NCBI GenBank assembly: GCA_043783305.1
Contig: JAYVZN010000098.1
Location: 1-56,963 of the forward strand
DNA length: 56,963 bases
From: Betaproteobacteria bacterium
GTDB lineage: Bacteria > Pseudomonadota > Gammaproteobacteria > Burkholderiales > Thiobacteraceae
Direction: 5' to 3'
How positions within the stretch are numbered: position 1 is the first letter of the stretch; the number at the start of each line of letters is the position of its first letter. Below, one piece after another: positions 1-54,440 of the stretch. Both the position numbers and the translations under genes were made by a program. Below the pieces are notes generated by a model that was not told where the DNA came from, did no database searches, and worked only from the letters and a program-made list of their open reading frames with translations.

Positions 1-450
1 GCATTAACCAACAAAGCCGGTGCAACACCAATCTCGAATCACGTGTACAGCTACGATGCCTTCGGTAACCGATCAAGCCAGACCGAGACCATTCAAAGCG
101 TCACCAAAAACTGGACTTATCAATACGACGCACAAAACAAATTAACCCAAGCCAACGACGGCACCGCCACCAACTGGACCTGGGACATCTTCGGTAATCG
201 AAGAAGTCAGACCATCGCGACCAACACGCTGGCCTACCTCAACGACGATGCACATCAACTGAATGAAATCCGAAATGGCACCGATACCGGGCTACTCTTG
301 GCGGCGTTCAAATACGATGCCAACGGCAACCTGACCAAGAAGTGCGATGCCACGACCGGCGGAGCCGTCACGCAAACGACCAGCGATTGCAGCGCGAGTG
401 GTGTCGGCAGCAGCACGCTGGCCCTGGCCTACGATGCCTCTGGGTGTTAG
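1..450 (+). pseudogene. RHS/YD-repeat protein fragment (5' end outside window, ends abruptly with no RHS core or toxin tail)
   Basis: Frame 1 is open from base 1. The translation carries repeated YD motifs (YSYDAFGNR, YQYDAQNKL, WDIFGNRRS, KYDANGNL). It terminates ...AYDASGC without the conserved PxxxxDPxGL core end or a C-terminal toxin domain. Confidence 0.6.
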
Positions 451-4250: not shown

Positions 4251-4266
4251 TGGCACGGCTTCTGCA
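4251..4266 (+). promoter_or_regulatory. sigma54 (RpoN) -24/-12 promoter candidate upstream of the nitrate transporter gene
   Basis: TGGCACGGCTTCTGCA matches TGGCAC-N5-TTGCA with GG-N10-GC spacing. It lies 44 nt upstream of GTG 4310. Upstream TGCAC/GTGCA half-sites at about 4150-4250 are possible NtrC enhancer sites. Confidence 0.55.
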
Positions 4267-5521: not shown

Positions 5522-5629
5522 AGCAGTTCCGTCGCGAGGGCATGGAAGGCAGCGCGTTAATCGGTTGCTTTACGTCATACCTCCCGAGTATTCTGCGGCA
5601 CCGACTTTTTGTCGTTACAATCCTGCCCT

Positions 5630-7324
5630 ATGGCTCTACAAATATCGGTTGGTCAAGCAACACACATAGGTAGCCGCGAGGAGAACGAGGACTACGCAGG
5701 CTGCGTGACTCCGGATGCCTCCGTCGCCCAGATCAAAGGCGCGTTGCTGGCCGTGGCCGACGGCGTGGGCGGTGGGGCGGCCGGGCGCGAAGCCTCCGAA
5801 TTCACCGTGCGCGGTGTCTTGTCCGACTACTACGCCACGCCCGATACCTGGGAAGTGCCGTTCGCTCTTGAAAAAATACTAGCTGCGATTAACCGTTGGT
5901 TATTAGCGCAGGGAAGATCGCAGCATGCGCTGGCCGACATGGCCACAACACTCTCCGCGCTCGTGCTGCGCGGCGCGCGTTTTTACACGGCGCATGTTGG
6001 CGATAGCCGGATCTATCGCTTGCGCGGTTCAAATCTACAGCAACTCACGACCGATCATGTTTGGGATCGTCCCGACATGCGCCATGTCTTGAAGCGCGCC
6101 GTGGGTTTAGATCAATTTCTATCCGTCGACTATGCCGATGGTGATTTGGCGGCCGGCGATATTTTTATCCTCGCAACCGACGGCGTGTGGGAACCGCTGG
6201 GCGATAAAATCATGCACGAATTGCTGCTGCTGCATCGCGAACCGCAGCGCGTGGCGGAAGCCCTGGTTGAAAGTGCCGTCAAGCGCAGTGGGCAAGACAA
6301 CGCAACCGTGGTCGTGGTGTCTGTGGAACAAGTGGGTGAAGATTCGTTGCAGGAATTTTTAACCGAAGGTAAAACCCTGCCGCTACCACCGAAATTTAAG
6401 CCCGGCGAGCGCATCGACGATTTCGAAGTGCTGGAACTGCTGCACGATTCCCGTGTCAGCCTGTTGTACAAAGTGCGGCAGATAGCCACCCAGCAAATCC
6501 TGGTATTAAAAACACTGCAACCGATTTTAGCCGATGACACGGCCAGCCAAAGTTGTTTGCTGATGGAAGAGTGGTTGACCAAGCGCGTGATGTCGCACTA
6601 CTTTCCGCAAGCGGTACCGTTGTTGCCCGGAGAGCGTAGTTGCTTGTATTTTGCGATGAGTTTTCACGAAGGCGCGACCCTGCAGCAGCGTCTCGACCAA
6701 GGCCAGCATTTCTCGGTAGCCGATGTGGCGCAAATCGGTATTCGCCTAGCCAAAGGCCTGTCGGCGCTGCACCGCTTGCATGTGATCCATCGCGATATCA
6801 AGCCGGCCAATTTACACGGCGGGGCGGATGGCAAATTGCGCATTCTGGATTTGGGTGTAGCGCTCAACCCCTGGACCGAGTCGGGTGCGCGCGGCAATGC
6901 CGGCACACCCAGTTTTATGGCACCGGAACAATTTACCGGTGCTGCGGCCAACGGTCAGGGTGATATTTACGCCGTCGGTGTGACGCTGTATCACTTACTG
7001 ACGCGCAAATATCCATATGGTGAAATCGAGCCGTTTCAAAATCCGCGTTTCGGCGAGCCGGTACCGCCCACGCGCTATCGTCCGGATATACCGCAGTGGC
7101 TGGAAAATGTCATCCTCAAGGCGGCTGCGCGCGACCGCGAGAAGCGCTTCGAAACGATCGAAGAGCTGTTGCTGGCTTTAGAGCAAGGGGAAATGAAACC
7201 CTTAGCGCCGATGGCGGCAACACCGCTGATCGAACGTTGCACTCCAGTCGTTTGGAAATTTTTGGCGCTGTTATCCTTTCTACTGAATCTGTTGTTGCTA
7301 TACCTGTTGCTGGCCGGGACTTAA
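5630..7324 (+). CDS. Bifunctional PP2C-type Ser/Thr phosphatase / Hanks-type Ser/Thr protein kinase with C-terminal membrane anchor
   Basis: The N-terminus has PP2C motifs (GSREENEDY, LAVADGVGG, ATDGVWE, GQDNATVVVV). The C-terminal half has kinase motifs (VLKTL lysine, HRDIKPANL, DLG, GTPSFMAPE). The protein ends in a hydrophobic helix (FLALLSFLLNLLLLYLLLAG). Confidence 0.8.
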   Translation: MALQISVGQATHIGSREENEDYAGCVTPDASVAQIKGALLAVADGVGGGAAGREASEFTVRGVLSDYYATPDTWEVPFALEKILAAINRWLLAQGRSQHALADMATTLSALVLRGARFYTAHVGDSRIYRLRGSNLQQLTTDHVWDRPDMRHVLKRAVGLDQFLSVDYADGDLAAGDIFILATDGVWEPLGDKIMHELLLLHREPQRVAEALVESAVKRSGQDNATVVVVSVEQVGEDSLQEFLTEGKTLPLPPKFKPGERIDDFEVLELLHDSRVSLLYKVRQIATQQILVLKTLQPILADDTASQSCLLMEEWLTKRVMSHYFPQAVPLLPGERSCLYFAMSFHEGATLQQRLDQGQHFSVADVAQIGIRLAKGLSALHRLHVIHRDIKPANLHGGADGKLRILDLGVALNPWTESGARGNAGTPSFMAPEQFTGAAANGQGDIYAVGVTLYHLLTRKYPYGEIEPFQNPRFGEPVPPTRYRPDIPQWLENVILKAAARDREKRFETIEELLLALEQGEMKPLAPMAATPLIERCTPVVWKFLALLSFLLNLLLLYLLLAGT

Positions 7325-11061: not shown

Positions 11062-11520
11062 CTATTTGTGCAAGCCCTCGACACTTAATACCAGCGAGGC
11101 GCGGTACTTCTGCCAAGTAATCGGGATGACCAAAGAGCGCAGACCATGCGGTAGATAGTCGTCGCCGGGAATGCCCTCGATCACGGTCGGCGGCGAGATC
11201 ACGAGGTCTTGGCCCAATGCGCGCCGCGAGTTGCCGGAGAGCGTGTTGGCGGCTTCACCGACCATATCCGCCATATAGGTTCGGTCCACACGTACCTCGC
11301 CCAGTGTGGCCAACAGGTGACGCAGCATGGCGCTCGGGGCGCTGAAGTAGAGCCGTCCCCGGCACAAGCCGCTGATGCCGATAATACCGGTGTAGTCGAG
11401 TAAATCGTGCTGGATCAATTCAGAGAGATAAGGTGTGCCCACTTCAGCGGGCGCATCCGAGATTGCGGCAAAGTAATCGCGTGCACCATCGACGAAAACT
11501 TGCACCCGTTTTTCATTCAT
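11062..11520 (-). CDS. CheX/CheC-like CheY-P phosphatase (putative)
   Basis: About 152 aa from ATG 11520 (MNEKRVQVFVDGARDYFAAIS...). It is in the CheX size range and overlaps the stop of the upstream single-domain response regulator by a few nt. Confidence 0.45.
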   Translation of the reverse strand: MNEKRVQVFVDGARDYFAAISDAPAEVGTPYLSELIQHDLLDYTGIIGISGLCRGRLYFSAPSAMLRHLLATLGEVRVDRTYMADMVGEAANTLSGNSRRALGQDLVISPPTVIEGIPGDDYLPHGLRSLVIPITWQKYRASLVLSVEGLHK

Positions 11521-11884
11521 GATTGGTTTCTCCGGTAAGTTCGAGTAGTGCGGCACCGATCTGCTCGTCCGAGAACGGCTTGAGCACGAAGCCGTGCGCG
11601 CCGCGCTTGAGTGCTTCGATGGCGGTGGCTTTATCCGCTAGCGCGGAGACAACTAAGATCAGGGTGTTGGGGCGGATCGCCAGTAAAGCCTGAATACAGG
11701 CGATGCCATCCATGCGCGGCATCGTCAGGTCCATCGTCACCACTTCGGCGTGTGATTCACGAAACAGCATCAATGCTTCTTCGCCATCCCGCGCCTGGGC
11801 CACAATGGTAAATTTTCGGGCCGCTGCGCCACGCGCAATCTTGTTGCGGATGACGCTCGAATCGTCAACGATCATCAGCTTCAT
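11513..11884 (-). CDS. CheY-like single-domain response regulator
   Basis: The receiver domain (MKLMIVDDSSVIRNKI..., ...VTMDLTMPRMDGI..., ...KP) has the Asp and Lys signature residues. Its ATG overlaps the stop of the upstream kinase (ATGA). Confidence 0.85.
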   Translation of the reverse strand: MKLMIVDDSSVIRNKIARGAAARKFTIVAQARDGEEALMLFRESHAEVVTMDLTMPRMDGIACIQALLAIRPNTLILVVSALADKATAIEALKRGAHGFVLKPFSDEQIGAALLELTGETNHE

Positions 11885-13995
11885 TGCGTGGCGTATTCAA
11901 CAGTAGGCTTTACATCCGGTAACAGAACGTGGAAGCGGGTCAGTTCGCCGAGCCGGCTGTGCAGGCGGATATGCCCACCCAGCCGTTGCGTAATCGCGTG
12001 CACGGCATCCAGCCCCACACCGCGCCCGGCATCTTCGTCGGCGTTGCTGCGGGTACTAAAACCCGCCCGGAACAACTGCTTGAGCAACTGTTGAGTGTTT
12101 AAGTTTTCGACTTCTGCGGCGGGCATACCGCTTGCGGCAAGCCGTTCACGAATGGCATCCAGTGAGATTCCCGCGCCGTCGTCTTCCACGATTAAGGCGA
12201 AGCCGCCTTCCTGCCGCTGAGTCCAGGCAATGTTGACTAGACCCATACCGGGTTTGTTTTTACCTGCCCGTCGGTCTGGAGTTTCAATGCCGTGCGCGAC
12301 GGCATTACGCACGAATTGCTGCGCTAATTCTTGAATCGCGTGACGGTAGGGCTCAGGTATTGCCGCATCCTCCAGCCCGCGCATCGTTAACTGGACGGAT
12401 TTCCCGCCGCGATTTGCGGCGCGTTGTGCGAGTGTTTTGAGACGGCGCTCTAACGAGAGATCCTCGATTTCGATCAGAGACGTCTGCCGCGGTGTGGCCG
12501 CGCCGCGTAAATGGGTCAAGCGGTTGAGCATTTCTTCGACATTGTCGATCAAGGACAAGAGCCGCTCAATTTGCACTGTTGTGAGGATGAAGTCGTTGCC
12601 GGTAAGCGTTGGCCGTTGCTGCAATTCGGCTAGGCTATCTTCTATTCGATGCGCGTGGCTTTCGATCAGCGATAAGCCGACGGCGCCCGCATCGCCCTTG
12701 ATGCGATGCATGACGCGGTAAATATAGTTGAGCTTGTCGACGAACGCGCGGTTGTCGTGCGCCGGATGGCGCAGAATATCGTTGACTTCGAGTAAGGCCG
12801 TGCGCGTGCGTTGAATCATGTCCGGTAAGTCGAACGGATCCAGCAGTAATAGTTCCGACACCATTTTGACCTGCTGTTCTGCGCGCTCGTTGGCCTGGGC
12901 AAGGTCTTGCTGTAGATGCACCCGTTCGGTCGTGTCTGAAACGGTTACTAGAATATGCGACAGCACACCGGCTTCGAGCACGCGGCGGAAACGAAAATCC
13001 AAGTATTTTGTTACTAAGCCGCCGCTTTGATCTTGAAAGTTCATCTCCACCCGGTTGAGCGGATTTAAGTCCGTGATCAAATGCTGGTTGACGCGATGTT
13101 CGAGCAGCAGCCCGACGTAATCTTTCACCAACTGCATCGTGCGCTCGGAGACATGCGTGCCGAGCAATGCGATAAAATCACGGTGCGCTAAATTTTCGCA
13201 GCGAAATAAGCGCTCCAATTCCTTGGAATACTGCGTGCCGATGTGTAAATCCCGATCCAACAGAAACAGCCCTTCATTTACCGTAGTCAGGATCTGATCG
13301 GTTTCCTGTTTGGCTTCTTCGCGCGCTTGATCGCTACGGCGTAACTGTTTCATGAAATGAAACAGGATGAGAAAGAAGTTGAGGATGGCGAGCACCATGC
13401 CGCCCGCCTGCACCAAGCGCAAAGTTTGCGCCTTGCCCGCAGCGGCTCTTTCCACATGCGTAGTCAGGTCGTTCATCAAATTCAGTAGTTTCAGGTTGCT
13501 TGCGGACGCAGCAGCGACCGCGGCCTGGAGCTTGGCCGGATCGGCATCCGTCAGCGTGGCTTGTACTAAGGCGCGATAGGGTGCCCATACGGCATCGGCT
13601 GTTTTTAAAATTATTTGCCCGGGTCCATCCGCCACGGCGGCTAGGTACAATTGTTCGCCGCCGCCGCCTTTCACCGTGCCGCCCCGGCGAAAGGCCGTAA
13701 GCGTTGTGTCGAACAGCGCAAAGCTTAGTTTTAATTCCTCCATCCGTTCATTAATCGGCTGACCTGTGCGTGCACTCTCTTCCATCTGATACAGCACCTT
13801 AGCCATGCGCTGCGACAACATGCGCTGGCGGCCTGCCAGGTTAACGGAAGCGGCATCGGCCTGGATTTGTGAAGCGATGATGAAGTTCATCACCAGTACC
13901 CCCATATCCACGACCAAAAATAAGGCAACCGCAGCGACGATAGACTGGTATTTGCTTAAGCTGTGTTTAAACATAGGGTAACGATTCAATCCCAA
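11881..13995 (-). CDS. Membrane-bound CheA-like histidine kinase with periplasmic PilJ/NarX-like (nitrate-sensor-type) domain; Hpt + CheA-type ATPase, no CheW-like domain
   Basis: After a signal/TM segment, the N-terminal domain carries the VNLAGRQRMLSQRM motif typical of the PilJ N-terminal / NarX-NIT sensor family. A second TM (VLAILNFFLILF) follows. The cytoplasmic part has an Hpt domain with HRIKGDAGAVGL (compare the canonical Che[12 protein letters not shown] in this window). The ATPase motifs are CheA-like: VRNAVAHGIE, IVEDDGAGI, GRGVGLD. The ORF ends right after the ATPase, with no P5. Confidence 0.7.
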   Translation of the reverse strand: MGLNRYPMFKHSLSKYQSIVAAVALFLVVDMGVLVMNFIIASQIQADAASVNLAGRQRMLSQRMAKVLYQMEESARTGQPINERMEELKLSFALFDTTLTAFRRGGTVKGGGGEQLYLAAVADGPGQIILKTADAVWAPYRALVQATLTDADPAKLQAAVAAASASNLKLLNLMNDLTTHVERAAAGKAQTLRLVQAGGMVLAILNFFLILFHFMKQLRRSDQAREEAKQETDQILTTVNEGLFLLDRDLHIGTQYSKELERLFRCENLAHRDFIALLGTHVSERTMQLVKDYVGLLLEHRVNQHLITDLNPLNRVEMNFQDQSGGLVTKYLDFRFRRVLEAGVLSHILVTVSDTTERVHLQQDLAQANERAEQQVKMVSELLLLDPFDLPDMIQRTRTALLEVNDILRHPAHDNRAFVDKLNYIYRVMHRIKGDAGAVGLSLIESHAHRIEDSLAELQQRPTLTGNDFILTTVQIERLLSLIDNVEEMLNRLTHLRGAATPRQTSLIEIEDLSLERRLKTLAQRAANRGGKSVQLTMRGLEDAAIPEPYRHAIQELAQQFVRNAVAHGIETPDRRAGKNKPGMGLVNIAWTQRQEGGFALIVEDDGAGISLDAIRERLAASGMPAAEVENLNTQQLLKQLFRAGFSTRSNADEDAGRGVGLDAVHAITQRLGGHIRLHSRLGELTRFHVLLPDVKPTVEYATQ

Positions 13996-14028: not shown

Positions 14029-14829
14029 TTAAGCGGCTGGGCGTAACTGCCGGTGATAAAGGAACTCCAGCACTTGGCTGCGCAGCCGGTGATAGCGTGC
14101 ATCATTGGCTAAAGCCAGCCGGTCGCGCGGGCGCGGCAGGTCTACACTCAAGATATCGCCGATGGTGGCACTCGGCCCATTGGTGAGCATAACAATGCGG
14201 TCGGACAGCAGCACGGCTTCGTCCACGTCGTGCGTCACCATCATCACGGTGCTGTGCGTTTCCTGCGCGATGCGCATTAGTTCATCTTGCAGATGGGCGC
14301 GAGTTAATGCATCCAGTGCGCCGAACGGTTCGTCCAGCAGCAGCACTTTCGGCTGCATCGCCAAGGCGCGTGCAATACCGACGCGCTGCTTCATGCCGCC
14401 GGAAATTTCCTGCGGGCGCTTATGCTCGGCGTGGGTTAAGCCGACTAAGGCCAGGGCATCGCGTGTGCGTTGTTGGAGCTGCGCTTTATTTTCTTTCGCG
14501 CCAAAAACACGCTCCACTGCGAGATAGACATTTTCGTAGCAGGTGAGCCACGGCAGCAGCGAATGGTTTTGAAACACCACGCCGCGCTCCGGACCCGGGC
14601 CATCAATTTCACGCCCGGCGCACAATAAAACCCCGTCGTCTGTTTGCAGTAGGCCCGCCACTAAATTCAGCAGCGTGGATTTACCGCAACCGGAGTGGCC
14701 AATGAGTGTAATAAATTCGCCTTGCGCGACGCTTAAGTTCACATTTTGCAGTGCGACAAACGGCCCGCTTTTGGTGTCGAAGACCATGTTCACATTTTCG
14801 ATCTGCACGTATCTTTCCATTGGAGTCAC
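14029..14829 (-). CDS. nrtD: ABC transporter ATP-binding protein, nitrate/sulfonate/bicarbonate family (NrtD/CmpD-like)
   Basis: Walker A (GHSGCGKST), ABC signature ([15 protein letters not shown]) and Walker B (LLLDEP) are present. It lies in an operon with the NrtA/NrtB homologues. Confidence 0.85.
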
Positions 14830-14847
14830 CTTTGTTTGTATTGGGTT

Positions 14848-16137
14848 TTAGAATTGCAGCTCGGCTTGCAGCCAGAATTTTTTGACATCTTTCGACAAGG
14901 CCTGAGTAGCGTTACGTGTCGCGTTTACCGCGTTGGTGTCGCCGCTATAGTTAGCGTACTTCACAGTGAGCGTGAGGTTTTTTTCGATTTTCTTTGTGGC
15001 CAGAAGATCCCATTCTTTGCCGTAGTTATAGCTTAAGTTATCACTCGAAAAATCATGATAGACCGCCAGCAGGTTGACCCCCCAGCCGGGTGAGCCGCCG
15101 ACGCTGACGAAGGCATCGCGGATACCGTCGCGCGGCGTGGTGAGAAATTTATCCGCCCAGCCGTTGAAGGCGTGCAGCGTCGCGAGCGGGGTGAAGAAGC
15201 CGTAAACGCCGTCGCCGCTCAGCACTTCGTAGTTGAACTTGACCTGCACGCCTTTGTAGTCCGCGCCGAGCATCGCAAACGCGTAGTCGGCATCGACTCG
15301 GGAGGTGCCGTCTTTGTAGCGGCTTTGATTCGCGTATTCGGCGGTGTAGAGCAATTTCCAGCCGTCGAACGGGTGGCCGCCGTCAAAACGCAGACCCAAG
15401 GTTTTATTCGAGTCGGTGACTGGAAAACCACCGTTTTGGCCCGGGTCGTAGTCCAACAAATAACTGTAGCCGACGATTTTTCCGGCCTTAAAGCCACTGT
15501 AGGCGACATTGAATAAATCGCTCTTCATGTGTAGATCGCTCAGCGTCGGATGGTCGGCACCGAAAAAACGATTCACATTGGTGACGTGCGCATAGTTAAT
15601 GGTGGTGGAAGGCAAGGATTTATTTTCCAGCGTGAAGGCATCGTAGGTTTGCTCGTTCTGGCGCCAGCCGACATTGCCGATGAAGCGGTGATTGTCGTAG
15701 GTAATAACTTGACGGCCATACTTGAGCAAGGTGCCCGGGATACCGCTATAGCTCAAGTAAGCTTGATTAATTTCGTTACCGGTGGGGTCGGCCACCACCG
15801 GATATTGGGTGCGGCCATTGTCGGTGCTGTTATAGCGCTCGCTGCCGATGACGCGCACATCCTCGAATTGCAGGAAAGCGCCGAAACCGTGGTACTCGCC
15901 GGTGAGGTAGCCAAGCTGTGTGCGCAAGGTAGAGGCTTCGGCGTTTTTGGCAAATCCTTCTTGGTCGACGCTTTCAAAGCGGTAACGCAAATTCAGCGAA
16001 GGTTTGCCGCCGGTCAGCGCTTCCATGAAATTGTCGCCGCTATAGGCTATCGGCGCGAGACCGGCCAGACAAATCCCGCTGAGTGCTGCTTGCGTCAAGA
16101 TGGAAAGATGTTTTTGTTTTACACGTTGCGTATTCAT
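14848..16137 (-). CDS. Outer-membrane beta-barrel porin embedded in the nitrate ABC operon (putative anion-selective channel)
   Basis: Signal peptide (LSILTQAALSGICLAGLAPIAYSG), alternating amphipathic strands, and a C-terminal aromatic residue (...WLQAELQF). It sits between the nrtB and nrtD homologues with gaps of 15-18 nt. Confidence 0.55.
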   Translation of the reverse strand: MNTQRVKQKHLSILTQAALSGICLAGLAPIAYSGDNFMEALTGGKPSLNLRYRFESVDQEGFAKNAEASTLRTQLGYLTGEYHGFGAFLQFEDVRVIGSERYNSTDNGRTQYPVVADPTGNEINQAYLSYSGIPGTLLKYGRQVITYDNHRFIGNVGWRQNEQTYDAFTLENKSLPSTTINYAHVTNVNRFFGADHPTLSDLHMKSDLFNVAYSGFKAGKIVGYSYLLDYDPGQNGGFPVTDSNKTLGLRFDGGHPFDGWKLLYTAEYANQSRYKDGTSRVDADYAFAMLGADYKGVQVKFNYEVLSGDGVYGFFTPLATLHAFNGWADKFLTTPRDGIRDAFVSVGGSPGWGVNLLAVYHDFSSDNLSYNYGKEWDLLATKKIEKNLTLTVKYANYSGDTNAVNATRNATQALSKDVKKFWLQAELQF

Positions 16138-16152
16138 TTAAAGCTCCCTTGG

Positions 16153-17031
16153 TTATTCGTAGTTAAAGCGTTTGGCCAGCAGTAATAGCCCATTTTCCAA
16201 CAGCAATCCAATAATACCAACGACAAAGATGGCGATGATGATGTGTGCCACATTCAAATTATTCCATTCGTCCCAAACCCAGAAACCGATGCCGACACCG
16301 CCAGTAAGCATTTCTGCGGCAACGATCACCAGCCAGGCGACACCGATGGAAAGCCGGATGCCGGTCATCAAATAAGGGAGTACTGCCGGGAATAAAATTT
16401 TGGTGAAAATTTTCCATTCGGAGAGCTTAAGCACTTTGGCCACATTCAGATAGTCCTGCGGTACGCGCGCAACACCGTCGGCAGTATTGATAATAATAGG
16501 CCAAATACTGGAAATAAAGATAACCCAGATACCGGCCGGGTTTGCGGCCTTGAAGACGAGCAGGCCGATGGGCAACCACACCAACGGCGAGACGGGCCGC
16601 AGCAGGCTGATAATAGGTGAAGTCATGCGATTGAAAAAAGTGAAGCGCCCGATCATGAAGCCCAGTGGAATGCCGATCAACGCCGCCATGCCGAAGCCGA
16701 TGCCGACGCGCTGTAGCGAGTTGAGCACATTCCAGCCGATGCCTTTATCGTTCGGCCCTTTATCGTAGAACGGGTCACTGAATAATTGCAGCGCAGACTC
16801 CCAAGTTTTAACCGGCCCGGGCAAGTTGGGGCTATGTTGCGCAATCACGGCCCACAAGCCGAGAAATAAAATAAAACCCAGGAGCGGTGGAACAATATGT
16901 TGCAGCATCGACCAGGATTTGCCTTTTATGCGCGGCGCGATGGCAGGCGCGGTTGCGACGGGCGGGCTGGCCTGCGGTGCGTTGACTTCAACCACGCTCA
17001 GCGCGGGTTTGATGGCGGCTACAGTGCTCAT
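16153..17031 (-). CDS. nrtB: ABC transporter permease (NrtB/CmpB-like)
   Basis: Binding-protein-dependent transport inner-membrane component with the EAA-like loop (GIRLSIGVAWLVIVAAEM). Confidence 0.85.
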   Translation of the reverse strand: MSTVAAIKPALSVVEVNAPQASPPVATAPAIAPRIKGKSWSMLQHIVPPLLGFILFLGLWAVIAQHSPNLPGPVKTWESALQLFSDPFYDKGPNDKGIGWNVLNSLQRVGIGFGMAALIGIPLGFMIGRFTFFNRMTSPIISLLRPVSPLVWLPIGLLVFKAANPAGIWVIFISSIWPIIINTADGVARVPQDYLNVAKVLKLSEWKIFTKILFPAVLPYLMTGIRLSIGVAWLVIVAAEMLTGGVGIGFWVWDEWNNLNVAHIIIAIFVVGIIGLLLENGLLLLAKRFNYE

Positions 17032-17054
17032 GATGTGCTCCTTGATAAAAATAA

Positions 17055-18329
17055 TTAAACCTTGATCTTGAAACCGTCGGCGTAACTCTTCGGATTTTTT
17101 GCATCCCAGGTCACGCCGTCGATCAGCTTGGCGCTACGCATCGGATCTTTGGGCACGGGTACTTTGACTTGTGCGGCGGCTTGTTTGTAGAGCTCGATCT
17201 GGTTTACTTTTTGGGCGACGGCCAAGTAATCCGGATGCGCTTTCAACAAGCCCCAACGTTTGTGCTGCGTGAGAAACCACATACCGTCGGAGAGGTAGGG
17301 AAAATTCACCGCGCCGTCGTTATAAAATTTCATGTAGTTCGGATCCTGCCATTTCTTACCGATACCGTTGTCGTACTGGCCGAGCATGCGGTCTTCCACC
17401 ACATCGAACGGGGCGTTGACATAAGCCTTATCCGCGATAATTTTGGCGACTTCGGAGCGATTGCTAAGCGTGTCGATGTATTTCGACGCCTCCAATACCG
17501 CCATCATCAGAGCGCGTGTGGTGTGGGGATATTTCGCGACAAATTCTGCGGTCGTGCCCAGTACTTTTTCCGGATGATCCTTCCAGATATCCTGCGTGGT
17601 CACGGCGGTGAAACCGATCTTGTCGGCAATGGCGCGCGCATTCCACGGCTCGCCGACGCAGTAGCCATCCATATTGCCGACGCGCATATTGGCCACCATC
17701 TGCGGTGGCGGCACGGTGATGGTCTTGACTTCGCTAAACGGATTGACCCCCTGCGCGGCCAGCCAATAGTAGAGCCACATCGCGTGGGTGCCGGTGGGGA
17801 AGGTTTGTGCGAAGGTGTATTCGCGCGGCTCTTTCTTGATGAGCGCAGCCAAGCTGGCACCGTCCTTTACACCTTTGTCGTGGAGCTGCTTGGAGAGCGT
17901 GATGGCTTGGCCATTATTGTTCAGCGTCATCAGCACGGACATATCTTTCTTCGGTCCGCCGATACCCAATTGCACACCGTAAAGCAAGCCGTAGAGCACG
18001 TGCGCTGCATCCAACTCGCCATTCACTAATTTATCCCGCACCCCGGCCCAGGAGGCCTCCTTGCTGGGCGTGATTTTAATGCCGTATTTTTTATCGAAGC
18101 CCAGTACCGAGGCGATGACGACCGAAGCGCAATCGGTTAATGGAATGAAACCGATTTTAACTTCAGATTTTTCCGGTGCGTCGGAGCCGGCCGCCCAAGC
18201 AGCGTTGCGGATCGCGTCCGGTACAAAACTCATGATGCCCGCCGCACCGGCTAGTGCGGTGCTTTTCTTTATAAAATCGCGGCGCGGTGTATTGATCGTG
18301 GTGGCATCGGGTGTGCGTTTATCTTTCAT
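17055..18329 (-). CDS. nrtA: Nitrate ABC transporter substrate-binding protein with twin-arginine signal (NrtA/NasF-like)
   Basis: Tat signal (PRRDFIKKSTALAGAAGIMSF), NMT1/NrtA-type periplasmic binding fold, and AGGAGA RBS ahead of ATG 18329. Confidence 0.85.
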   Translation of the reverse strand: MKDKRTPDATTINTPRRDFIKKSTALAGAAGIMSFVPDAIRNAAWAAGSDAPEKSEVKIGFIPLTDCASVVIASVLGFDKKYGIKITPSKEASWAGVRDKLVNGELDAAHVLYGLLYGVQLGIGGPKKDMSVLMTLNNNGQAITLSKQLHDKGVKDGASLAALIKKEPREYTFAQTFPTGTHAMWLYYWLAAQGVNPFSEVKTITVPPPQMVANMRVGNMDGYCVGEPWNARAIADKIGFTAVTTQDIWKDHPEKVLGTTAEFVAKYPHTTRALMMAVLEASKYIDTLSNRSEVAKIIADKAYVNAPFDVVEDRMLGQYDNGIGKKWQDPNYMKFYNDGAVNFPYLSDGMWFLTQHKRWGLLKAHPDYLAVAQKVNQIELYKQAAAQVKVPVPKDPMRSAKLIDGVTWDAKNPKSYADGFKIKV

Positions 18330-18357
18330 CGTGCTCTCCTTAAGTCAATTTTCAGCC

Positions 18358-18409
18358 AAAAAAAAGCGCCCATCCCTGGCAAAGCAAAGCTTGCCGTAGG
18401 AATGGACGC
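18358..18409 (-). terminator. Intrinsic terminator in the nrtA leader (attenuator)
   Basis: In the minus-strand RNA, the 5' arm GCGUCCAUUCC (plus 18399-18409) pairs with GGGAUGGGCGC (plus 18366-18376) over 11 bp including two G-U pairs. It is followed by U8 (plus A8 18358-18365), about 30 nt before the nrtA start. Confidence 0.5.
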
Positions 18410-18465
18410 CGTTGTCCGTTTTAGTAGTGCAACTTTGCACTACCGTACCACCCGCCGTTGGGTGG
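18404..18465 (-). promoter_or_regulatory. ANTAR-type dual hexaloop RNA hairpins in the nrtA leader (NasT antitermination target)
   Basis: RNA hairpin 1 is CCACCC-AACGGC-GGGUGG (plus 18448-18465). RNA hairpin 3 is GGAC-AACGGC-GUCC (plus 18404-18417). Both have the identical hexaloop AACGGC (A at position 1, G at position 4, as in ANTAR targets). Hairpin 3's 3' arm overlaps the terminator's 5' arm. A third hairpin, GUAGUGC-AAAGUU-GCACUAC (plus 18424-18443), lies between them. Confidence 0.5.
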
Positions 18466-18481
18466 CTTTCAATGATTACAC

Positions 18482-18497
18482 AGCACGTACCGTGCCA
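18482..18497 (-). promoter_or_regulatory. sigma54 -24/-12 promoter candidate for the nrtA operon
   Basis: The minus strand reads TGGCACGGTACGTGCT (perfect TGGCAC at -24, GC at -12, GG-N10-GC spacing). It lies 20 nt downstream of the nasT stop and about 15 nt upstream of the first leader hairpin. Confidence 0.45.
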
Positions 18498-18516
18498 ATT
18501 TTTTATTACGCGCGTT

Positions 18517-19134
18517 TTAGGTGAAAGCCTGCGCCATCTCGACAATTTGCGCCGCGATGTCGGCGAGCTTGGCATTGCGTTGCATCGCCATCTTACGCAT
18601 TAAGTTATAAGCCGCGTCTTCACTCACTTTCTTTTGCTGCATCACGATGCCTTTCGCACGCTCAATTAACTTACGCTCGGCAAGCTGATTTTGTGCAAGG
18701 CTTAAATCTTGTCGCAGCGCTTGATGTTCCTCAAAGCGCAGCATGGCGACTTGTAAAATCGGTTTAATGCGCTCCGGCGCAGTCCCTTTTACAACATACG
18801 AAGTGACCCCGGCGCGCATCGCCTGCTTCATTCGAGAGACATCATCGTCATCGGTAAAAAGCACGATGGGGCGTGGTTGATCGCGGCTAATCATGCACAC
18901 ATGCTCGAGCGTGTCGCGATCCGGCGCATCGGTATCGATGACGATCACATCCGGGTCCAATTGCGGCAAGCTATTTAACAAGTCGAGCGAGATCGACGCG
19001 CGTTGCAGTACCAAGTAATCGCTGGTTTGTAAGCTTTGGGCCAATAGAGCGCGCCGCTCAGGATTAGCGTCAACGATTAATACGCGCAATGGCGATGCAA
19101 TGGGAGAGGTCATATCCATACTTATAGCAACCAA
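18517..19134 (-). CDS. nasT: ANTAR-domain response regulator (NasT/AmiR-like nitrate-assimilation antiterminator)
   Basis: Receiver domain (LRVLIVDANPERRALL..., ...DVIVIDTDAPD...) plus a C-terminal ANTAR domain (LAERKLIERAKGIVMQQKKVSEDAAYNLMRKMAMQRNAKLADIA). Confidence 0.85.
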   Translation of the reverse strand: MVAISMDMTSPIASPLRVLIVDANPERRALLAQSLQTSDYLVLQRASISLDLLNSLPQLDPDVIVIDTDAPDRDTLEHVCMISRDQPRPIVLFTDDDDVSRMKQAMRAGVTSYVVKGTAPERIKPILQVAMLRFEEHQALRQDLSLAQNQLAERKLIERAKGIVMQQKKVSEDAAYNLMRKMAMQRNAKLADIAAQIVEMAQAFT

Positions 19135-19264
19135 CGTGCCAAGTCGAAGCTGGCTGAAAATCCCCGAAGCACCATCGGTAAACGCTATTTAACGGTATTC
19201 CAAGGCGCGTGCTGCACCATTCTGGGTGGCTCACATCAGGGAAGTGCACAGCAATGGTGCTGGG

Positions 19265-19600
19265 TTAGCGCTCCAACTTTTTACCAAGAAGATAAGCATC
19301 GACCATGCCGAACAGCCAGCACAGGGCGAGCACCCACGTGGCGGCATTCAGTATTTTATCGTCGGCGGTGGCTTGTAGTGTGACCGCGACTAGATGCTGT
19401 ATATCGAGTCCGCTACCCTCGGCTAAACTTTTTTCGATGACCCGGCGGGCTTGCTGCATTACTTGAAATAGCAAGAGGGTGAGGCTGATTAAACTAATTG
19501 CGATTAACGCGATGCCGCGCTGAAACGATTTGAGCAGGAGGTGGCCCGCCCCCGGAAAAATAACGGCGGACCACAGCAGCGCTTGGATGGATTTACGCAT
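19265..19600 (-). CDS. Small integral membrane protein (3 TM), unknown function
   Basis: 111 aa with hydrophobic segments AVIFPGAGHLLL, IALIAISLISLTLLLF and WVLALCWLFGMV. It lies 3 nt from the upstream Cache-like ORF. Confidence 0.4.
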   Translation of the reverse strand: MRKSIQALLWSAVIFPGAGHLLLKSFQRGIALIAISLISLTLLLFQVMQQARRVIEKSLAEGSGLDIQHLVAVTLQATADDKILNAATWVLALCWLFGMVDAYLLGKKLER

Positions 19601-19603
19601 GCG

Positions 19604-20539
19604 CTAGAACCAAAACGCGGTGTCCTTCAAGAGAAACTCGTCATACGGCATATAGTGCGAGCCGTCACAAGAGAACGTCAGGCTGATCATACCGTTAAAA
19701 ATATTGATCGAGGCGGTACGCAGATAAAAAGTCGGATCGGTGAGGCGTAAGGCTTGCAGCGTGGTGAGAATCGGCTGGATTTTATTCTCGGGAATGGTCG
19801 CATCGTGTGGATAGGAGCGCGCCGGAAACACCAAACAGATATCCGGGTCGCTCAAGGCTTCGTGATCCAAAATACGGTAGCGGTAAGGATCATCAATCGT
19901 CCACAGCGTCGCTTGGCTACTGGAAAAGTGGATCTGACATTGAAACACGCCGCGATTCGTCAGTAACTCTTCCAAGATGGATAAGGCCTGTGCAATATTG
20001 CCGTCCAAGGGACTATCGACCCGACATTGTTGAAACACCGCGCCGCGAATCGCCGGGTCGCCTTTCACCTGGCGCCAGTTACCGGGTTCTTCGTACAACT
20101 CCGCCGTAACCGGCAGATCACGCAAGTCGAAATCGGCGCCGAGATAGCCCAGGGTGTTGCCATCCGCGCGCACAACTTGCAGTGCGGTGAGCGAAGGCCG
20201 GTGATTAAGAATACTGATATACGCATCGGATAACAAAAACCCCCAGGCTGGAACCGCTTCCATCATGTAGGGACGGTTTGAACGATCACGTCCAAAGTGG
20301 CCGGGTATGACGCCGCTCGCGCCAATGTTGTCGCAAATTTGAACACCATCGGTGCCGACGCAGTACAGAAAAGCACTATGCGGTATATCGGCGAAGCCCT
20401 GCATCAGTACAGCTTCCAGTTGCGCACGATCATGCCAAACCGGCGGGCAACGCTCGGCCAACTGCGCTAACGGTTCGCGCAGTTGCCGCGCTAACTGTTC
20501 GCGCTGTAGATAAATACTTTCCTTCCAAGAAGTTTTCAT
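19604..20539 (-). CDS. Cytoplasmic Cache/PAS-like sensor-domain protein with uncharacterised C-terminal domain
   Basis: There is no signal peptide or TM. Residues about 40-190 resemble single-Cache domains (CVGTDGVQICD..., RSNRPYMMEAV..., DGNTLGYLGADFDLRDL). The C-terminal about 130 aa has no recognisable motif. Confidence 0.4.
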   Translation of the reverse strand: MKTSWKESIYLQREQLARQLREPLAQLAERCPPVWHDRAQLEAVLMQGFADIPHSAFLYCVGTDGVQICDNIGASGVIPGHFGRDRSNRPYMMEAVPAWGFLLSDAYISILNHRPSLTALQVVRADGNTLGYLGADFDLRDLPVTAELYEEPGNWRQVKGDPAIRGAVFQQCRVDSPLDGNIAQALSILEELLTNRGVFQCQIHFSSSQATLWTIDDPYRYRILDHEALSDPDICLVFPARSYPHDATIPENKIQPILTTLQALRLTDPTFYLRTASINIFNGMISLTFSCDGSHYMPYDEFLLKDTAFWF

Positions 20540-53854: not shown

Positions 53855-54440
53855 GGGATATCCGTTTCGTCAAATCCTCCAGCGGGCCGTACGCCGCTGG
53901 GGGATTTTATTTTAGCGTACCGCGAGATAGCTTTGGAATTCATCCGCGTTCATTTCACGTACCTTCATGCCCGCGCGCGCTTTAAATGGGTAATAGTAGG
54001 TGTGGTTACCGTCGATACGGACTTTGATAATAACCGTGTCCGATCCGGTATTACGGGTTCCAAACAAACGACTGGCAAGACGTTTCAGCAACATGATGGC
54101 TCCTGTGATTAGTCCTTTTGCTGCATATTCAGCAAGCACCGTGCCAGGTAAATAATCAGAGCAACTTCTCGCGGCAACTCTGCCGCAAGCATAAAGTTTT
54201 AGTTAAATAACAGCCGTGTAAGAATTTTAGCGCGGGGACAATTACGACTTCGAGTGGATCGCGATGACGCGCGTAACCTCGTCGATATTGTTTTGCCTGT
54301 AGAAAAATTGACGGCGATGAACGGAAATTCGACAGGGGATCGGTAGCGGAATATAACCGGGCGCACAGCGATGTATCCCGTGTGCATTACCGATAGGTAG
54401 CAACACTTTTACGTGCGAAACAGCTATTTACGCCATAACC

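What the first reader, a model, noticed from the sequence alone, without database searches (positions are those of the whole stretch)
18358..18497. nrtA leader carries a sigma54 promoter, hexaloop ANTAR-target hairpins and a hairpin-overlapped intrinsic terminator
There are 187 bp between nasT and nrtA. Reading the minus-strand RNA, a sigma54 -24/-12 element (TGGCAC-N5-GTGCT) comes first. Hairpin CCACCC-AACGGC-GGGUGG follows. Then comes hairpin GUAGUGC-AAAGUU-GCACUAC. Then comes hairpin GGAC-AACGGC-GUCC. The 3' arm of the last hairpin is part of the 5' arm of an 11-bp terminator stem (GCGUCCAUUCC / GGGAUGGGCGC) followed by U8. Two hairpins share the identical hexaloop AACGGC with A at position 1 and G at position 4, the signature of ANTAR-binding dual stem-loops. 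This is a textbook NasT-type antitermination switch that can be read directly from the sequence. The identical loops are striking.
Basis: seen in the sequence. Interest (0 to 1): 0.6.

Follow-up and report, generated by a model that had tools for sequence, protein, structure and literature searches.

The report
NasT antitermination leader before nrtA
The DNA between nasT and nrtA encodes an ordinary, well-conserved nitrate-control RNA switch: a default transcription stop signal that the neighbouring RNA-binding protein NasT most likely overrides. It is a new example of a known mechanism.

Summary

- **Model match.** A covariance model built only from 24 other nrtA leaders hits 18401-18468(-) at 40.8 bits (E~7e-9). 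This is the only hit below E=0.08 in the 57-kb window.
- **Conservation.** The same model finds this architecture upstream of 66 of 80 nrtA orthologues. The architecture is a sigma54 promoter, a P1 hexaloop hairpin, a GGAC-AANGGC-GUCC P2 hairpin and an overlapping terminator.
- **Covariation.** P1, P2 and the terminator extension all covary.
- **Loops.** A1 and G4 and the closing C:G pair are nearly invariant.
- **Linked protein.** An ANTAR-domain nasT gene lies directly upstream in most loci.
- **Known relatives.** Orthologous leaders reach Rfam's narK motif threshold. The window does not (29.4 vs 43.2 bits), because the middle hairpin is a 21-23-nt insertion.

The element is therefore a new member of the NasR/NasT (NalA/P11, narK-motif) leader class.

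Three points go beyond the textbook case:
- The middle hairpin is a clade-specific structured spacer and also carries a C:G-closed A1/G4 hexaloop.
- No nasS gene is nearby.
- This clade's NasT alone keeps a complete phospho-acceptor set.

The parts
18482..18497 (-). sigma54-type -24/-12 promoter of nrtA (TGGCAC-N5-GTGCT). The predicted transcription start is near 18471.
   Evidence: One search shows the sequence. The same motif lies 130-190 nt upstream of nrtA in 55/80 orthologous loci. Its T, GG, C and TGC columns are invariant in alignment A1. The start site is inferred from the usual spacing and was not mapped.
18447..18466 (-).
   Evidence: It appears in the MFE fold. In a MAFFT alignment of 49 loci, 87.1% of cells pair against 30-48% when the partner is slid, with 107 double-change cells and 0/500 shuffles as high. 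Loop A1 is 64/65 and G4 is 65/65. The loop starts 19-24 nt after the -12 element in nearly all loci.
18423..18444 (-). It is a clade-specific structured spacer and possibly an auxiliary ANTAR site.
   Evidence: Folded alone it gives -12.7 kcal/mol. Both Rfam narK and model R1 treat it as a 21-23-nt insertion. All 7 members of the close clade have a stable hairpin here with different stem sequences. Only 4/7 have A1/G4.
18404..18417 (-). P2 antiterminator mini-hairpin GGAC-AACGGC-GUCC (loop 18413-18408).
   Evidence: It is absent from the MFE fold because it competes with the terminator. Across 69 model matches it is 100% paired, with compensatory changes at 3 of 4 pairs and an invariant C:G closing pair. 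Loop A1 is 68/69, G4 69/69, G5 67/69 and C6 67/69.
18358..18410 (-). Intrinsic terminator: 13 outer plus 7 inner pairs (18410-18366), then U8 (18365-18358). Its 5' arm reuses P2 loop positions 4-6 and the whole P2 3' arm.
   Evidence: Seen. The terminator conformer is 8.2 kcal/mol more stable than the fold with P2 enforced. The variable 8-nt stem extension pairs 5.39/8 with its own partner, against 3.40±0.18 after permutation, with 0/20000 permutations as high.
18336..18341 (-). Shine-Dalgarno AAGGAG of nrtA, 6 nt before the ATG at 18329.
18517..19119 (-). nasT: REC + ANTAR response-regulator-type antiterminator. The start codon is uncertain: the ORF runs up to 19134, but a sigma54 motif overlaps that start.
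   Evidence: Pfam ANTAR E 5.3e-19 and Response_reg E 4.2e-15. EutV 6WSH/6WW6 E 2.4e-19 over the full length. A nasT homologue lies directly upstream of nrtA in most of the 80 loci.
19126..19141 (-). Second, perfect sigma54 motif TGGCACGTTGGTTGCT at the 5' end of nasT.
   Evidence: It is conserved at the same place in 8 of 9 close relatives. An NtrC-like palindrome with 2 mismatches lies about 105 nt upstream at 19245-19261.
14029..18329 (-). Controlled genes: nrtA (17055-18329, Tat signal), nrtB (16153-17031), an Alginate_exp-like porin (14848-16137) and the nitrate ABC ATPase (14029-14829).
   Evidence: Pfam and NCBIfam hits: NMT1_2 E 6e-107, TIGR01183 ntrB, TIGR01184 ntrCD.
11062..13995 (-). 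Probably co-transcribed PilJ-Hpt-HATPase kinase (11881-13995), CheY-like gene (11513-11884) and CheX (11062-11556).
   Evidence: Pfam. There is a 33-nt gap after the ATPase gene. The same module follows nrtABD in L164 and L165.

Best explanation
This is the 5' leader of a nitrate ABC-transporter operon. It works as a protein-dependent transcription antitermination switch of the NasR/NasT (ANTAR) kind.

1. **Initiation.** Transcription starts at a sigma54 promoter, presumably driven by NtrC under nitrogen limitation. Transcripts reading through from nasT also enter the leader.
2. **Early folding.** The nascent RNA first folds P1 (18466-18447) and the middle hairpin.
3. **Default stop.** The long terminator hairpin (18410-18366 plus U8) then forms, and transcription stops before nrtA.
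4. **Override.** When NasT, encoded immediately upstream, is active, it binds the C:G-closed AACGGC hexaloop of P1. It then captures the identical hexaloop of the weak 4-bp P2 hairpin (18417-18404). This holds back the GC-GUCC segment that the terminator needs for its base, so RNA polymerase reads into nrtA-nrtB-porin-nrtD and probably the kinase module.
5. **Middle hairpin.** It most likely acts as a structured spacer. It folds 23 of the 30 linker nucleotides away and brings P1 and P2 together. It may also offer a third NasT site.

**Shown here:** the sequence elements, the mutual exclusivity of P2 and the terminator, the energetics, conservation and covariation, and linkage to nasT.

**Inferred:** NasT binding, nitrate dependence, sigma54/NtrC use and the transcription start.
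For: - Elements and fold.
- The terminator is favoured over the P2-enforced fold by 8.2 kcal/mol in the window and by 8-16 kcal/mol in six relatives, so P2 needs a protein.
- An independent model (R1) hits the window at 40.8 bits, E~7e-9, as the only hit below E=0.08. It aligns H1 as P1 and H3 as P2.
- R1 finds 66/80 nrtA loci, always just upstream of nrtA on the coding strand.
- Covariation supports P1, P2 and the terminator extension.
- Loop A1/G4 and the C:G closing pairs are nearly invariant. These match the determinants found for EutV (PMC3369931) and by SELEX for NasR (PMC7496416).
- NasT has REC and ANTAR domains and is EutV-like.
- nasT lies upstream of nrtA in 50 of 62 leader-bearing loci that have enough flank.
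- Rfam narK scores 29.4 bits and P11 scores 23.2 bits here. narK is reached above threshold in the orthologous leaders L026 and L046.
- P11 is NalA, the validated NasT target (PMC11387622, PMC10783516).
- K. oxytoca nasR-nasF has the same layout, including sigma54 promoters for both genes (PMC12591593).
Against: - No experiment is available for this organism.
- The P1-P2 spacing is 30 nt. For EutV, linkers of 14 nt or +20 nt abolished antitermination (PMC3369931, PMC8934654).
- No nasS-like gene lies in the window or within 3 kb of nasT in the 80 loci, so the nitrate input is unidentified.
- No NtrC-like site was found within 200 bp upstream of the nrtA promoter.
- Both Rfam family thresholds are missed.
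- The leader/nasT co-occurrence test is only marginal (Fisher p = 0.059).
Confidence: 0.85

Rival explanations
1. This is a three-site switch. The middle hairpin is a true third NasT-binding hexaloop. H2 and H3, separated by 6 nt, form the canonical dual hairpin, and the promoter-proximal H1 is an additional recruitment site. This would fit the 'successive binding' model proposed for EutV.
For: - H2 has a C:G closing pair, A1 and G4.
- Its loop lies 23 nt before the P2 loop. That is the same distance as P1 to P2 in short-linker leaders, which is 19-32 nt.
- Among leaders that have a distal P1 plus a stable proximal hexaloop hairpin, 6 of 9 proximal loops are A1/G4. The background rate is 5.8% (34/583).
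- In L007 and L018 only the proximal hairpin is ANTAR-like.
- Model R1 chooses the middle hairpin plus P2 in L001 and L003.
- A single hexaloop is the minimal ANTAR binding site (PMC8934654).
Against: - Within the window's own clade the stem is conserved but the loop drifts. A1/G4 occurs in only 4 of 7 members, and L083 (AAGAUU), L084 (pentaloop) and L002 (CAAGGA) lack it.
- In the window, the A1-U6 pair can close the loop into a tetraloop in the MFE fold.
- R1 prefers H1 plus H3 in the window despite the insertion penalty.
- P1 and P2 loops are invariant while H2 loops are not.
Confidence: 0.25
2. The RNA mechanism is the same but the input differs. In this clade NasT is a genuine phospho-accepting response regulator, activated by a histidine kinase rather than by release from a nitrate-binding NasS partner. 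The kinase could be the PilJ-sensor CheA-like kinase encoded at the end of the same operon.
For: - The REC residues D-D-T-K are complete only in the window and its 6 closest relatives. The other 130 NasT homologues have D, G, A, N or H at the Lys position, and some lack the acceptor Asp.
- The Lys aligns with the EutV Lys.
- There is no nasS-like gene nearby.
- The PilJ-Hpt-HATPase kinase, CheY and CheX follow nrtABD here and in L164 and L165.
- PilJ domains bind nitrate in McpN (PMC6381276). There is a weak match to the chemotaxis transducer 6GCV (E 0.025).
Against: - L001 belongs to the D-D-T-K clade but has no such kinase after nrtD.
- The kinase has its own CheY and CheX partners.
- NasS could be encoded elsewhere in the genome.
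- The first acidic pair is D-A, not D-D.
- Nothing here tests phosphotransfer.
Confidence: 0.15
3. The conserved 'narK motif' RNA is recognised by something other than NasT, such as a small-molecule ligand (riboswitch) or another RNA-binding protein. The nasT linkage would then be incidental.
For: Rfam lists narK (RF03032) only as a cis-regulatory element. Twelve leader-bearing loci have no nasT within the available upstream flank.
Against: - The conserved nucleotides are exactly the ANTAR determinants: C:G closing pair, A1 and G4 in two hexaloops (PMC7496416).
- There is no conserved pocket-forming structure beyond two simple hairpins.
- Homologous P11/NalA leaders are shown to depend on NasT (PMC10783516, PMC11387622).
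Confidence: 0.04
4. The hairpins are chance inverted repeats. The region is only the terminator of nasT next to an independent nrtA promoter.
For: The sigma54 string alone is not above chance in the window. No terminator lies between nasT and the promoter.
Against: The terminator lies downstream of the promoter, so it would also stop nrtA transcripts. Covariation and conservation across 66 loci argue against chance. R1 gives E~7e-9.
Confidence: 0.01

Closest known systems
Klebsiella oxytoca nasR-nasF leader (NasR, NIT+ANTAR)
   Same: - The regulator gene lies immediately upstream of the periplasmic nitrate-binding-protein gene.
- Both genes have sigma54 promoters.
- The leader has two C:G-closed A1/G4 hexaloop hairpins, and the second overlaps a factor-independent terminator (PMC12591593, PMC7496416).
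   Different: The regulator here is REC+ANTAR (NasT-type), not NIT+ANTAR, so it cannot sense nitrate through a fused NIT domain. The leader also carries an extra stable hairpin between P1 and P2.
Pseudomonas NalA/P11 leader of nirBD with NasS-NasT (Rfam RF00625)
   Same: It has a sigma54/NtrC promoter and a P1 hexaloop. It also has a nearly identical P2 (GGAC-AAAGGC-GUCC) that overlaps the terminator. Its regulator is a REC+ANTAR NasT. Loop A1/G4 residues are required for binding and readthrough (PMC10783516, PMC11387622; alignment).
   Different: - The window scores 23.2 bits against a gathering score of 70.
- The controlled operon is nrtABD rather than nirBD.
- There is no adjacent nasS.
- NasT here keeps the REC Lys and Thr that most NasT homologues have lost.
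Rfam narK motif (RF03032)
   Same: This is the same element. The consensus is a sigma54 promoter, a CC-AACGGC-GG hairpin and CGAC-AAAGAC-GUCG. The orthologous nrtA leaders in L026 and L046 pass the threshold at 46.2 and 45.5 bits.
   Different: The window scores 29.4 against 43.2 bits because H2 is a 21-nt insertion. The Rfam model is narrow: several clear short-linker leaders also fail it.
Enterococcus faecalis EutV / eut dual-hexaloop terminators
   Same: The ANTAR+REC protein is full-length homologous (E 2.4e-19). The dual A1/G4 hexaloop logic is the same, with P2 embedded in the terminator (PMC3369931, PMC8934654).
   Different: eut linkers are 5-12 nt and length-sensitive. Here P1-P2 spacing ranges from 1 to 48 nt among matched leaders and is 30 nt, folded into a hairpin, in the window. 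The pathway and kinase also differ.

Membership tests
ANTAR-target dual-hexaloop RNA (Ramesh 2012; Goodson 2020) | Two stem-loops with at least 3 bp each | tested here: met
   P1 has 6-7 bp and P2 has 4 bp. Both helices are supported by covariation.
ANTAR-target dual-hexaloop RNA (Ramesh 2012; Goodson 2020) | Hexanucleotide loops with A at position 1 and G at position 4 | tested here: met
   Both loops are AACGGC. Across the family, A1 is 64/65 and 68/69, and G4 is 65/65 and 69/69.
ANTAR-target dual-hexaloop RNA (Ramesh 2012; Goodson 2020) | Terminal C:G closing base pair on each hairpin (NasR SELEX) | tested here: met
   Both hairpins read C-AACGGC-G. The closing C:G pair is present in 66/69 P1 and 69/69 P2 hairpins.
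ANTAR-target dual-hexaloop RNA (Ramesh 2012; Goodson 2020) | The P2 3' arm is part of the 5' arm of an intrinsic terminator with a U tract | tested here: met
   Positions 18410-18404 are shared between P2 and the terminator, and U8 follows at 18365-18358. The terminator extension covaries.
ANTAR-target dual-hexaloop RNA (Ramesh 2012; Goodson 2020) | Short single-stranded linker between the two hairpins (5-12 nt in eut) | tested here: inconclusive
   The H1-H3 linker is 30 nt, but 22 of those nucleotides fold into H2, leaving about 3 + 5 unpaired. The H2-H3 linker is 6 nt. Linkers of 1-48 nt occur in the family.
ANTAR-target dual-hexaloop RNA (Ramesh 2012; Goodson 2020) | An ANTAR-domain protein is encoded in the genome | tested here: met
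   The adjacent gene has Pfam ANTAR at E 5.3e-19.
ANTAR-target dual-hexaloop RNA (Ramesh 2012; Goodson 2020) | The ANTAR protein binds the RNA and causes readthrough | not testable with these tools
   This needs gel shifts, reporter fusions or in vitro transcription.
Rfam RF03032 narK | Score at or above the curated gathering threshold (43.2 bits) | tested here: not met
   The window scores 29.4 bits, E 7.5e-4. The orthologous leaders L026 and L046 score 46.2 and 45.5 bits.
Rfam RF00625 P11 (NalA) | Score at or above the gathering threshold (70 bits) | tested here: not met
   The window scores 23.2 bits, E 0.0033. The family is Pseudomonas-specific.
NasS-NasT partner-switching system | A cytoplasmic NrtA-like NasS is encoded with nasT | tested here: not met
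   tblastn with NrtA finds no paralogue in the 57-kb window or next to nasT in the 80 loci. The rest of the genome was not searchable.
NasS-NasT partner-switching system | NasT has a REC + ANTAR architecture | tested here: met
   Unlike 130 of 136 homologues, this NasT keeps the REC Lys.
sigma54-dependent promoter | GG and GC dinucleotides spaced as in TGGCAC-N5-TTGCW | tested here: met
   The window has TGGCACGGTACGTGCT, with 1 mismatch. The motif is conserved in 55/80 orthologous loci.
sigma54-dependent promoter | An upstream enhancer site for an activator (NtrC) and a mapped start site | tested here: inconclusive
   No NtrC-like match with 3 or fewer mismatches lies within 200 bp upstream. 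The nearest is at 19245-19261, upstream of nasT. The start site was not mapped.

The most novel reading that the evidence does not exclude
In this small betaproteobacterial clade the NasT switch may have been rewired in two ways.

- The antiterminator alone retains a complete phospho-acceptor receiver (D-D-T-K), and no NasS is encoded nearby.
- It acts on a three-hairpin leader.

Nitrate would then be sensed by a histidine kinase that phosphorylates NasT, as EutW does for EutV. A candidate is the PilJ (NarX/McpN-like) sensor kinase that this same leader controls, which would create a positive feedback loop. The classical mechanism, by contrast, is NasS partner switching.
Probability: 0.12. Interest if true: 0.6.

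Novelty: new member of a known kind. Interest (0 to 1): 0.3.

Why it matters
The result confirms that a reader working from sequence alone can correctly recognise an ANTAR antitermination switch.

It also links the betaproteobacterial 'narK motif' of Rfam to nasT and to the NasR/NasT mechanism. Rfam lists that motif only as a cis-regulatory element.

Biologically it predicts two-layer control of nitrate uptake in an uncharacterised sulfur-oxidiser-like betaproteobacterium. One layer is nitrogen limitation acting through sigma54. The other is nitrate acting through NasT.

The leads of wider interest are secondary:
- NasT leaders tolerate linkers of 1-48 nt, unlike eut leaders.
- Some leaders carry a third ANTAR-type hexaloop.
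- One clade's NasT looks phosphorylatable and lacks an adjacent NasS.

Tried and rejected
1. **orf311 (19604-20539) as a missing nitrate sensor or NasT partner.** It is conserved next to nasT in L081-L084. However, it belongs to a very large 'PDC sensor domain' family of 5801 homologues. In three other genomes its neighbours have nothing to do with nitrate. Rejected.
2. **Further ANTAR targets in the window.** None were found. GGACAANGGCGTCC has one exact match. CAANGRYG is at chance level. The paired CAACGACG strings at 153 and 240 lie in what looks like repeat-protein coding sequence. The second-best R1 hit scores 13.1 bits inside a coding region.
3. **Rfam at gathering thresholds.** Nothing was found in the window.
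4. **The Weinberg 2017 paper.** Its main text does not mention narK, ANTAR or nitrate, so I could not cite what was originally proposed for the motif.
5. **One wasted literature search.** It matched 'Antarctic'.
6. **Naming the source organism.** The cluster look-up returned no names.
7. **RNAalifold on the 7-member clade.** It recovered P1 and the terminator, but only the top of H2, because MAFFT misregistered its bulged stem. Per-sequence folds were used instead.
8. **A leader-peptide attenuator.** By eye, the leader has no plausible start codon with a ribosome-binding site.
Full report
**Observation**

Reading 18200-18650 on the minus strand confirms every element at the stated coordinates.
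- The nasT stop codon ends at 18517 and the nrtA ATG is at 18329, giving 187 intergenic bases.
- TGGCAC-N5-GTGCT lies at 18497-18482.
- Hairpin 1 is CCACCC/AACGGC/GGGUGG (18465-18448).
- Hairpin 2 is GUAGUGC/AAAGUU/GCACUAC (18443-18424).
- Hairpin 3 is GGAC/AACGGC/GUCC (18417-18404).
- The terminator has a 5' arm that reuses the last loop bases and the whole 3' arm of hairpin 3. U8 follows at 18365-18358.

RNAfold of 18330-18480(-) gives hairpins 1 and 2 plus a long terminator of 13 outer and 7 inner pairs. The energy is -59.8 kcal/mol, z = -5.06.

- 18517-19134(-) is a REC+ANTAR protein.
- 17055-18329(-) is an NMT1_2 nitrate-binding protein with a Tat signal.
- It is followed by the nitrate ABC permease, an Alginate_exp-like porin and the ntrCD-type ATPase.

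**Is it more than chance?**

The sigma54 string by itself is not. With up to one mismatch there are 4 matches against 3.0 expected in the window. The composite element is.

I built covariance model R1 from 24 dual-hairpin leaders of other loci (A3). None came from the window or its close relatives. With filters off, R1 hits 18401-18468(-) at 40.8 bits, E about 7e-9. The next match in 57 kb scores 13.1 bits. The model aligns hairpin 1 as P1 and hairpin 3 as P2, and treats hairpin 2 as a 23-nt insertion.

**Comparative evidence**

A scan of species-representative genomes with NrtA returned 80 loci, all Betaproteobacteria-like. The best is 88% identical.
- A strict TGGC[AC][CT]-N5-[TCG]TGC[TA] motif lies upstream of nrtA in 55 of 80 loci, mostly at -130 to -190.
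- Downstream of it the same architecture recurs. A hexaloop hairpin has its loop starting 19-24 nt after the -12 element. A variable linker follows. Then comes GGAC-AA[ACG]GGC-GUCC, and then a terminator whose base pairs with GGCGUCC.
- R1 finds this unit in 66 of 80 loci, always just 5' of nrtA on the coding strand.

Covariation supports all three helices.
- **P1.** In a MAFFT alignment that was not fitted to any structure (A1, 49 loci), the 7-bp helix is 87.1% paired. With the partner slid it is 30-48% paired. There are 107 double-change cells against 21-35, and 0 of 500 shuffles reach the observed values.
- **P2.** It is 100% paired in 69 matches, with compensatory changes at 3 of 4 pairs. 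That alignment is model-fitted, so it leans towards the structure.
- **Terminator.** The variable 8 nt beyond the conserved core pair 5.39/8 with their own partner. After permuting partners among loci the value is 3.40±0.18, and 0 of 20,000 permutations reach the observed value.

Loop statistics are as follows.

| Hairpin | A1 | A2 | G4 | G5 | C6 |
|---|---|---|---|---|---|
| P1 | 64/65 | 64/65 | 65/65 | – | – |
| P2 | 68/69 | – | 69/69 | 67/69 | 67/69 |

The closing pair is C:G in 66/69 P1 and 69/69 P2 hairpins. The identical AACGGC loops in the window are therefore the family consensus rather than a peculiarity.

**Link to the protein**

A NasT homologue lies directly upstream of nrtA, on the same strand, in most loci. 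Among loci with enough upstream sequence, 50 of 62 leader-bearing loci have nasT upstream, against 6 of 12 without a leader. This is only marginal statistically (Fisher p = 0.059). The window's NasT aligns over its full length with EutV (6WSH/6WW6, E 2.4e-19) and Rv1626.

**Comparison with what is known**

The features that define ANTAR targets are:
- two stem-loops of at least 3 bp;
- hexaloops with A1 and G4;
- a second hairpin that overlaps a terminator (Ramesh 2012, PMC3369931);
- a terminal C:G pair, found by SELEX with NasR (Goodson 2020, PMC7496416).

All are met. The K. oxytoca nasR-nasF system has the same gene order and sigma54 promoters for both genes (PMC12591593). Pseudomonas NalA, also called P11, is the validated NasT-dependent leader of nirBD (PMC10783516, PMC11387622).

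In E-value mode Rfam gives sub-threshold hits here.
- narK (RF03032) scores 29.4 bits against a gathering score of 43.2. Hairpin 2 appears as a 21-nt insertion.
- P11 (RF00625) scores 23.2 bits against 70.

At gathering thresholds nothing is found in the window. The orthologous nrtA leaders of L026 and L046 do pass narK, at 46.2 and 45.5 bits. The window's element thus works like these families and is homologous to them. It formally fails both curated score thresholds. I file it under the broader ANTAR-target/NasT-leader kind, not as an Rfam narK member.

**Mechanism**

The terminator conformer is 8.2 kcal/mol more stable than the best fold with P2 enforced. In six relatives the difference is 8-16 kcal/mol. 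The default state is therefore termination, and the 4-bp P2 needs a protein clamp.

With P2 formed, the residual hairpin is separated from the U tract by GGGCGC. It is therefore no longer a terminator.

Nothing terminates transcription between nasT and the promoter. nasT transcripts therefore also run into the leader.

**The middle hairpin**

Its loop AAAGUU has a C:G closing pair, A1 and G4, although A1-U6 can close it into a tetraloop. A metagenome scan with NasT added four close relatives, L081-L084. All seven members of the clade have a stable hairpin here, at -12 to -17 kcal/mol, and their stems are quite different. Loops are ANTAR-like in only four of the seven.

| Clade member | Middle-hairpin loop | A1/G4 |
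|---|---|---|
| Window | AAAGUU | yes |
| L081 | AGCGAU | yes |
| L082 | AGCGAU | yes |
| L001 | AAUGAG | yes |
| L083 | AAGAUU | no |
| L084 | pentaloop | no |
| L002 | CAAGGA | no |

More widely, leaders fall into three classes:
- short-linker, with loop-to-loop distance of 19-32 nt;
- long unstructured linker of about 45 nt, as in Thiobacillus-like loci;
- three-hairpin.

Where a distal P1 and a stable proximal hexaloop hairpin coexist, 6 of 9 proximal loops are A1/G4. The background rate is 5.8%.

For EutV, a longer linker abolishes antitermination (PMC3369931, PMC8934654). My reading is that H2 is primarily a structured spacer that brings P1 and P2 together. A real but unproven possibility is that it serves as a third binding site. 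A single hexaloop is the minimal ANTAR site (PMC8934654).

**Signal input**

No NrtA/NasS paralogue is in the window or near nasT in the 80 loci.

The REC residues of this NasT are D-D-T-K. Among 136 homologues only the six closest relatives share the Lys. The rest have D, G, A, N or H, and some lack the acceptor Asp.

The operon continues, after a 33-nt gap, into a PilJ-Hpt-HATPase kinase, a CheY and a CheX.
- The same module follows nrtABD in L164 and L165, at 70-73% identity.
- It does not do so in L001 or in a 41% homologue.
- PilJ domains bind nitrate in McpN (PMC6381276).
- The match to the chemotaxis transducer 6GCV is weak (E 0.025).

This supports only a low-probability alternative, in which NasT is controlled here by phosphorylation.

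**Verdict**

This is a new member of a known kind. Interest is modest, because specialists would expect such a leader upstream of a nasT-linked nitrate transporter operon.

Noticed in passing
window 19126-19141 (-), and 19245-19261: A perfect sigma54 motif, TGGCACGTTGGTTGCT, overlaps the 5' end of the longest nasT ORF. It is conserved in 8 of 9 close relatives. The real nasT start must therefore lie downstream (ATG 19113 or TTG 19089), with almost no leader and no obvious ribosome-binding site. An NtrC-like palindrome, AGCACCATTGCTGTGCA, lies about 105 nt upstream.
   Followed up: partly
window 18517-19119 (-): The NasT receiver domain keeps D-D-T-K. Among 136 homologues only this clade (L081-L084, L001, L002) has the conserved Lys. 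The others have D, G, A, N or H, and Thiobacillus-type proteins also lack the acceptor Asp. No nasS-like gene is in the window.
   Followed up: partly
window 11062-13995 (-); L164 9001-11943; L165 3312-6239: A membrane kinase with a PilJ (NarX/McpN-like) sensor, Hpt and HATPase domains but no CheW domain sits directly after the nitrate ABC transporter genes. A CheY and a CheX follow it. The arrangement is the same in two relatives. This could be a nitrate-sensing chemosensory-like module under the same leader.
   Followed up: partly
window 14848-16137 (-): An Alginate_exp-like outer-membrane porin gene is inserted between nrtB and nrtD. Homologues occur in nrt loci L041, L043, L044, L052 and L061, but not in the closest genome, L001. 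It may be a nitrate/nitrite porin.
   Followed up: no
Rfam RF03032 consensus positions 1-15 (alignment): The first 15 consensus positions of the Rfam narK 'RNA' model (GGCaCAgcucUUGCU) are the sigma54 -24/-12 promoter. This is a DNA element upstream of the transcript, so the model mixes promoter and RNA.
   Followed up: no
L165 196-249, 6977-7031, 10231-10286; L164 3197-3259, 12660-12710; L035 6061-6116; L053 6133-6187; L041 1206-1248: Relatives carry several R1-type leaders in one locus. In L165 they precede nrtA, an MFS transporter gene and nirB. This points to NasT regulons of several operons. The window has only one.
   Followed up: partly
L004, L005, L013, L019, L049 (upstream of nrtA): These nrtA orthologues keep a sigma54 motif at -56 to -106 but have no P1/P2/terminator leader and no nasT upstream. 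They appear to have lost the antitermination layer.
   Followed up: no
window 19604-20539 (-) and 19265-19600 (-): orf311 is a 311-aa 'PDC sensor domain' protein with no significant Pfam match (dCache_1 E 0.015). It is extremely conserved, at 74-96% identity across Sulfuricella, Sulfuriferula, Thiobacillus and Acidithiobacillus, with 5801 homologues. Its gene context is variable. orf111 is a small membrane protein that weakly resembles DUF6677.
   Followed up: partly
window 5609-7324 (+); L165 8398-10086: A PP2C phosphatase-Ser/Thr kinase fusion protein is encoded in the window. A protein with the same domains sits between the MFS gene and nirB in L165. This may be a recurrent link to nitrate assimilation clusters.
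   Followed up: no
window 54131-54146 (-) and 4251-4266 (+): There are two further sigma54-like motifs: TGGCACGGTGCTTGCT (a perfect match) and TGGCACGGCTTCTGCA.
   Followed up: no
window 1-450 (+): The sequence reads by eye like coding sequence for a repeat-rich protein of the YD/RHS type, running off the window start. It accounts for the clustered CAACGACG matches.
   Followed up: no
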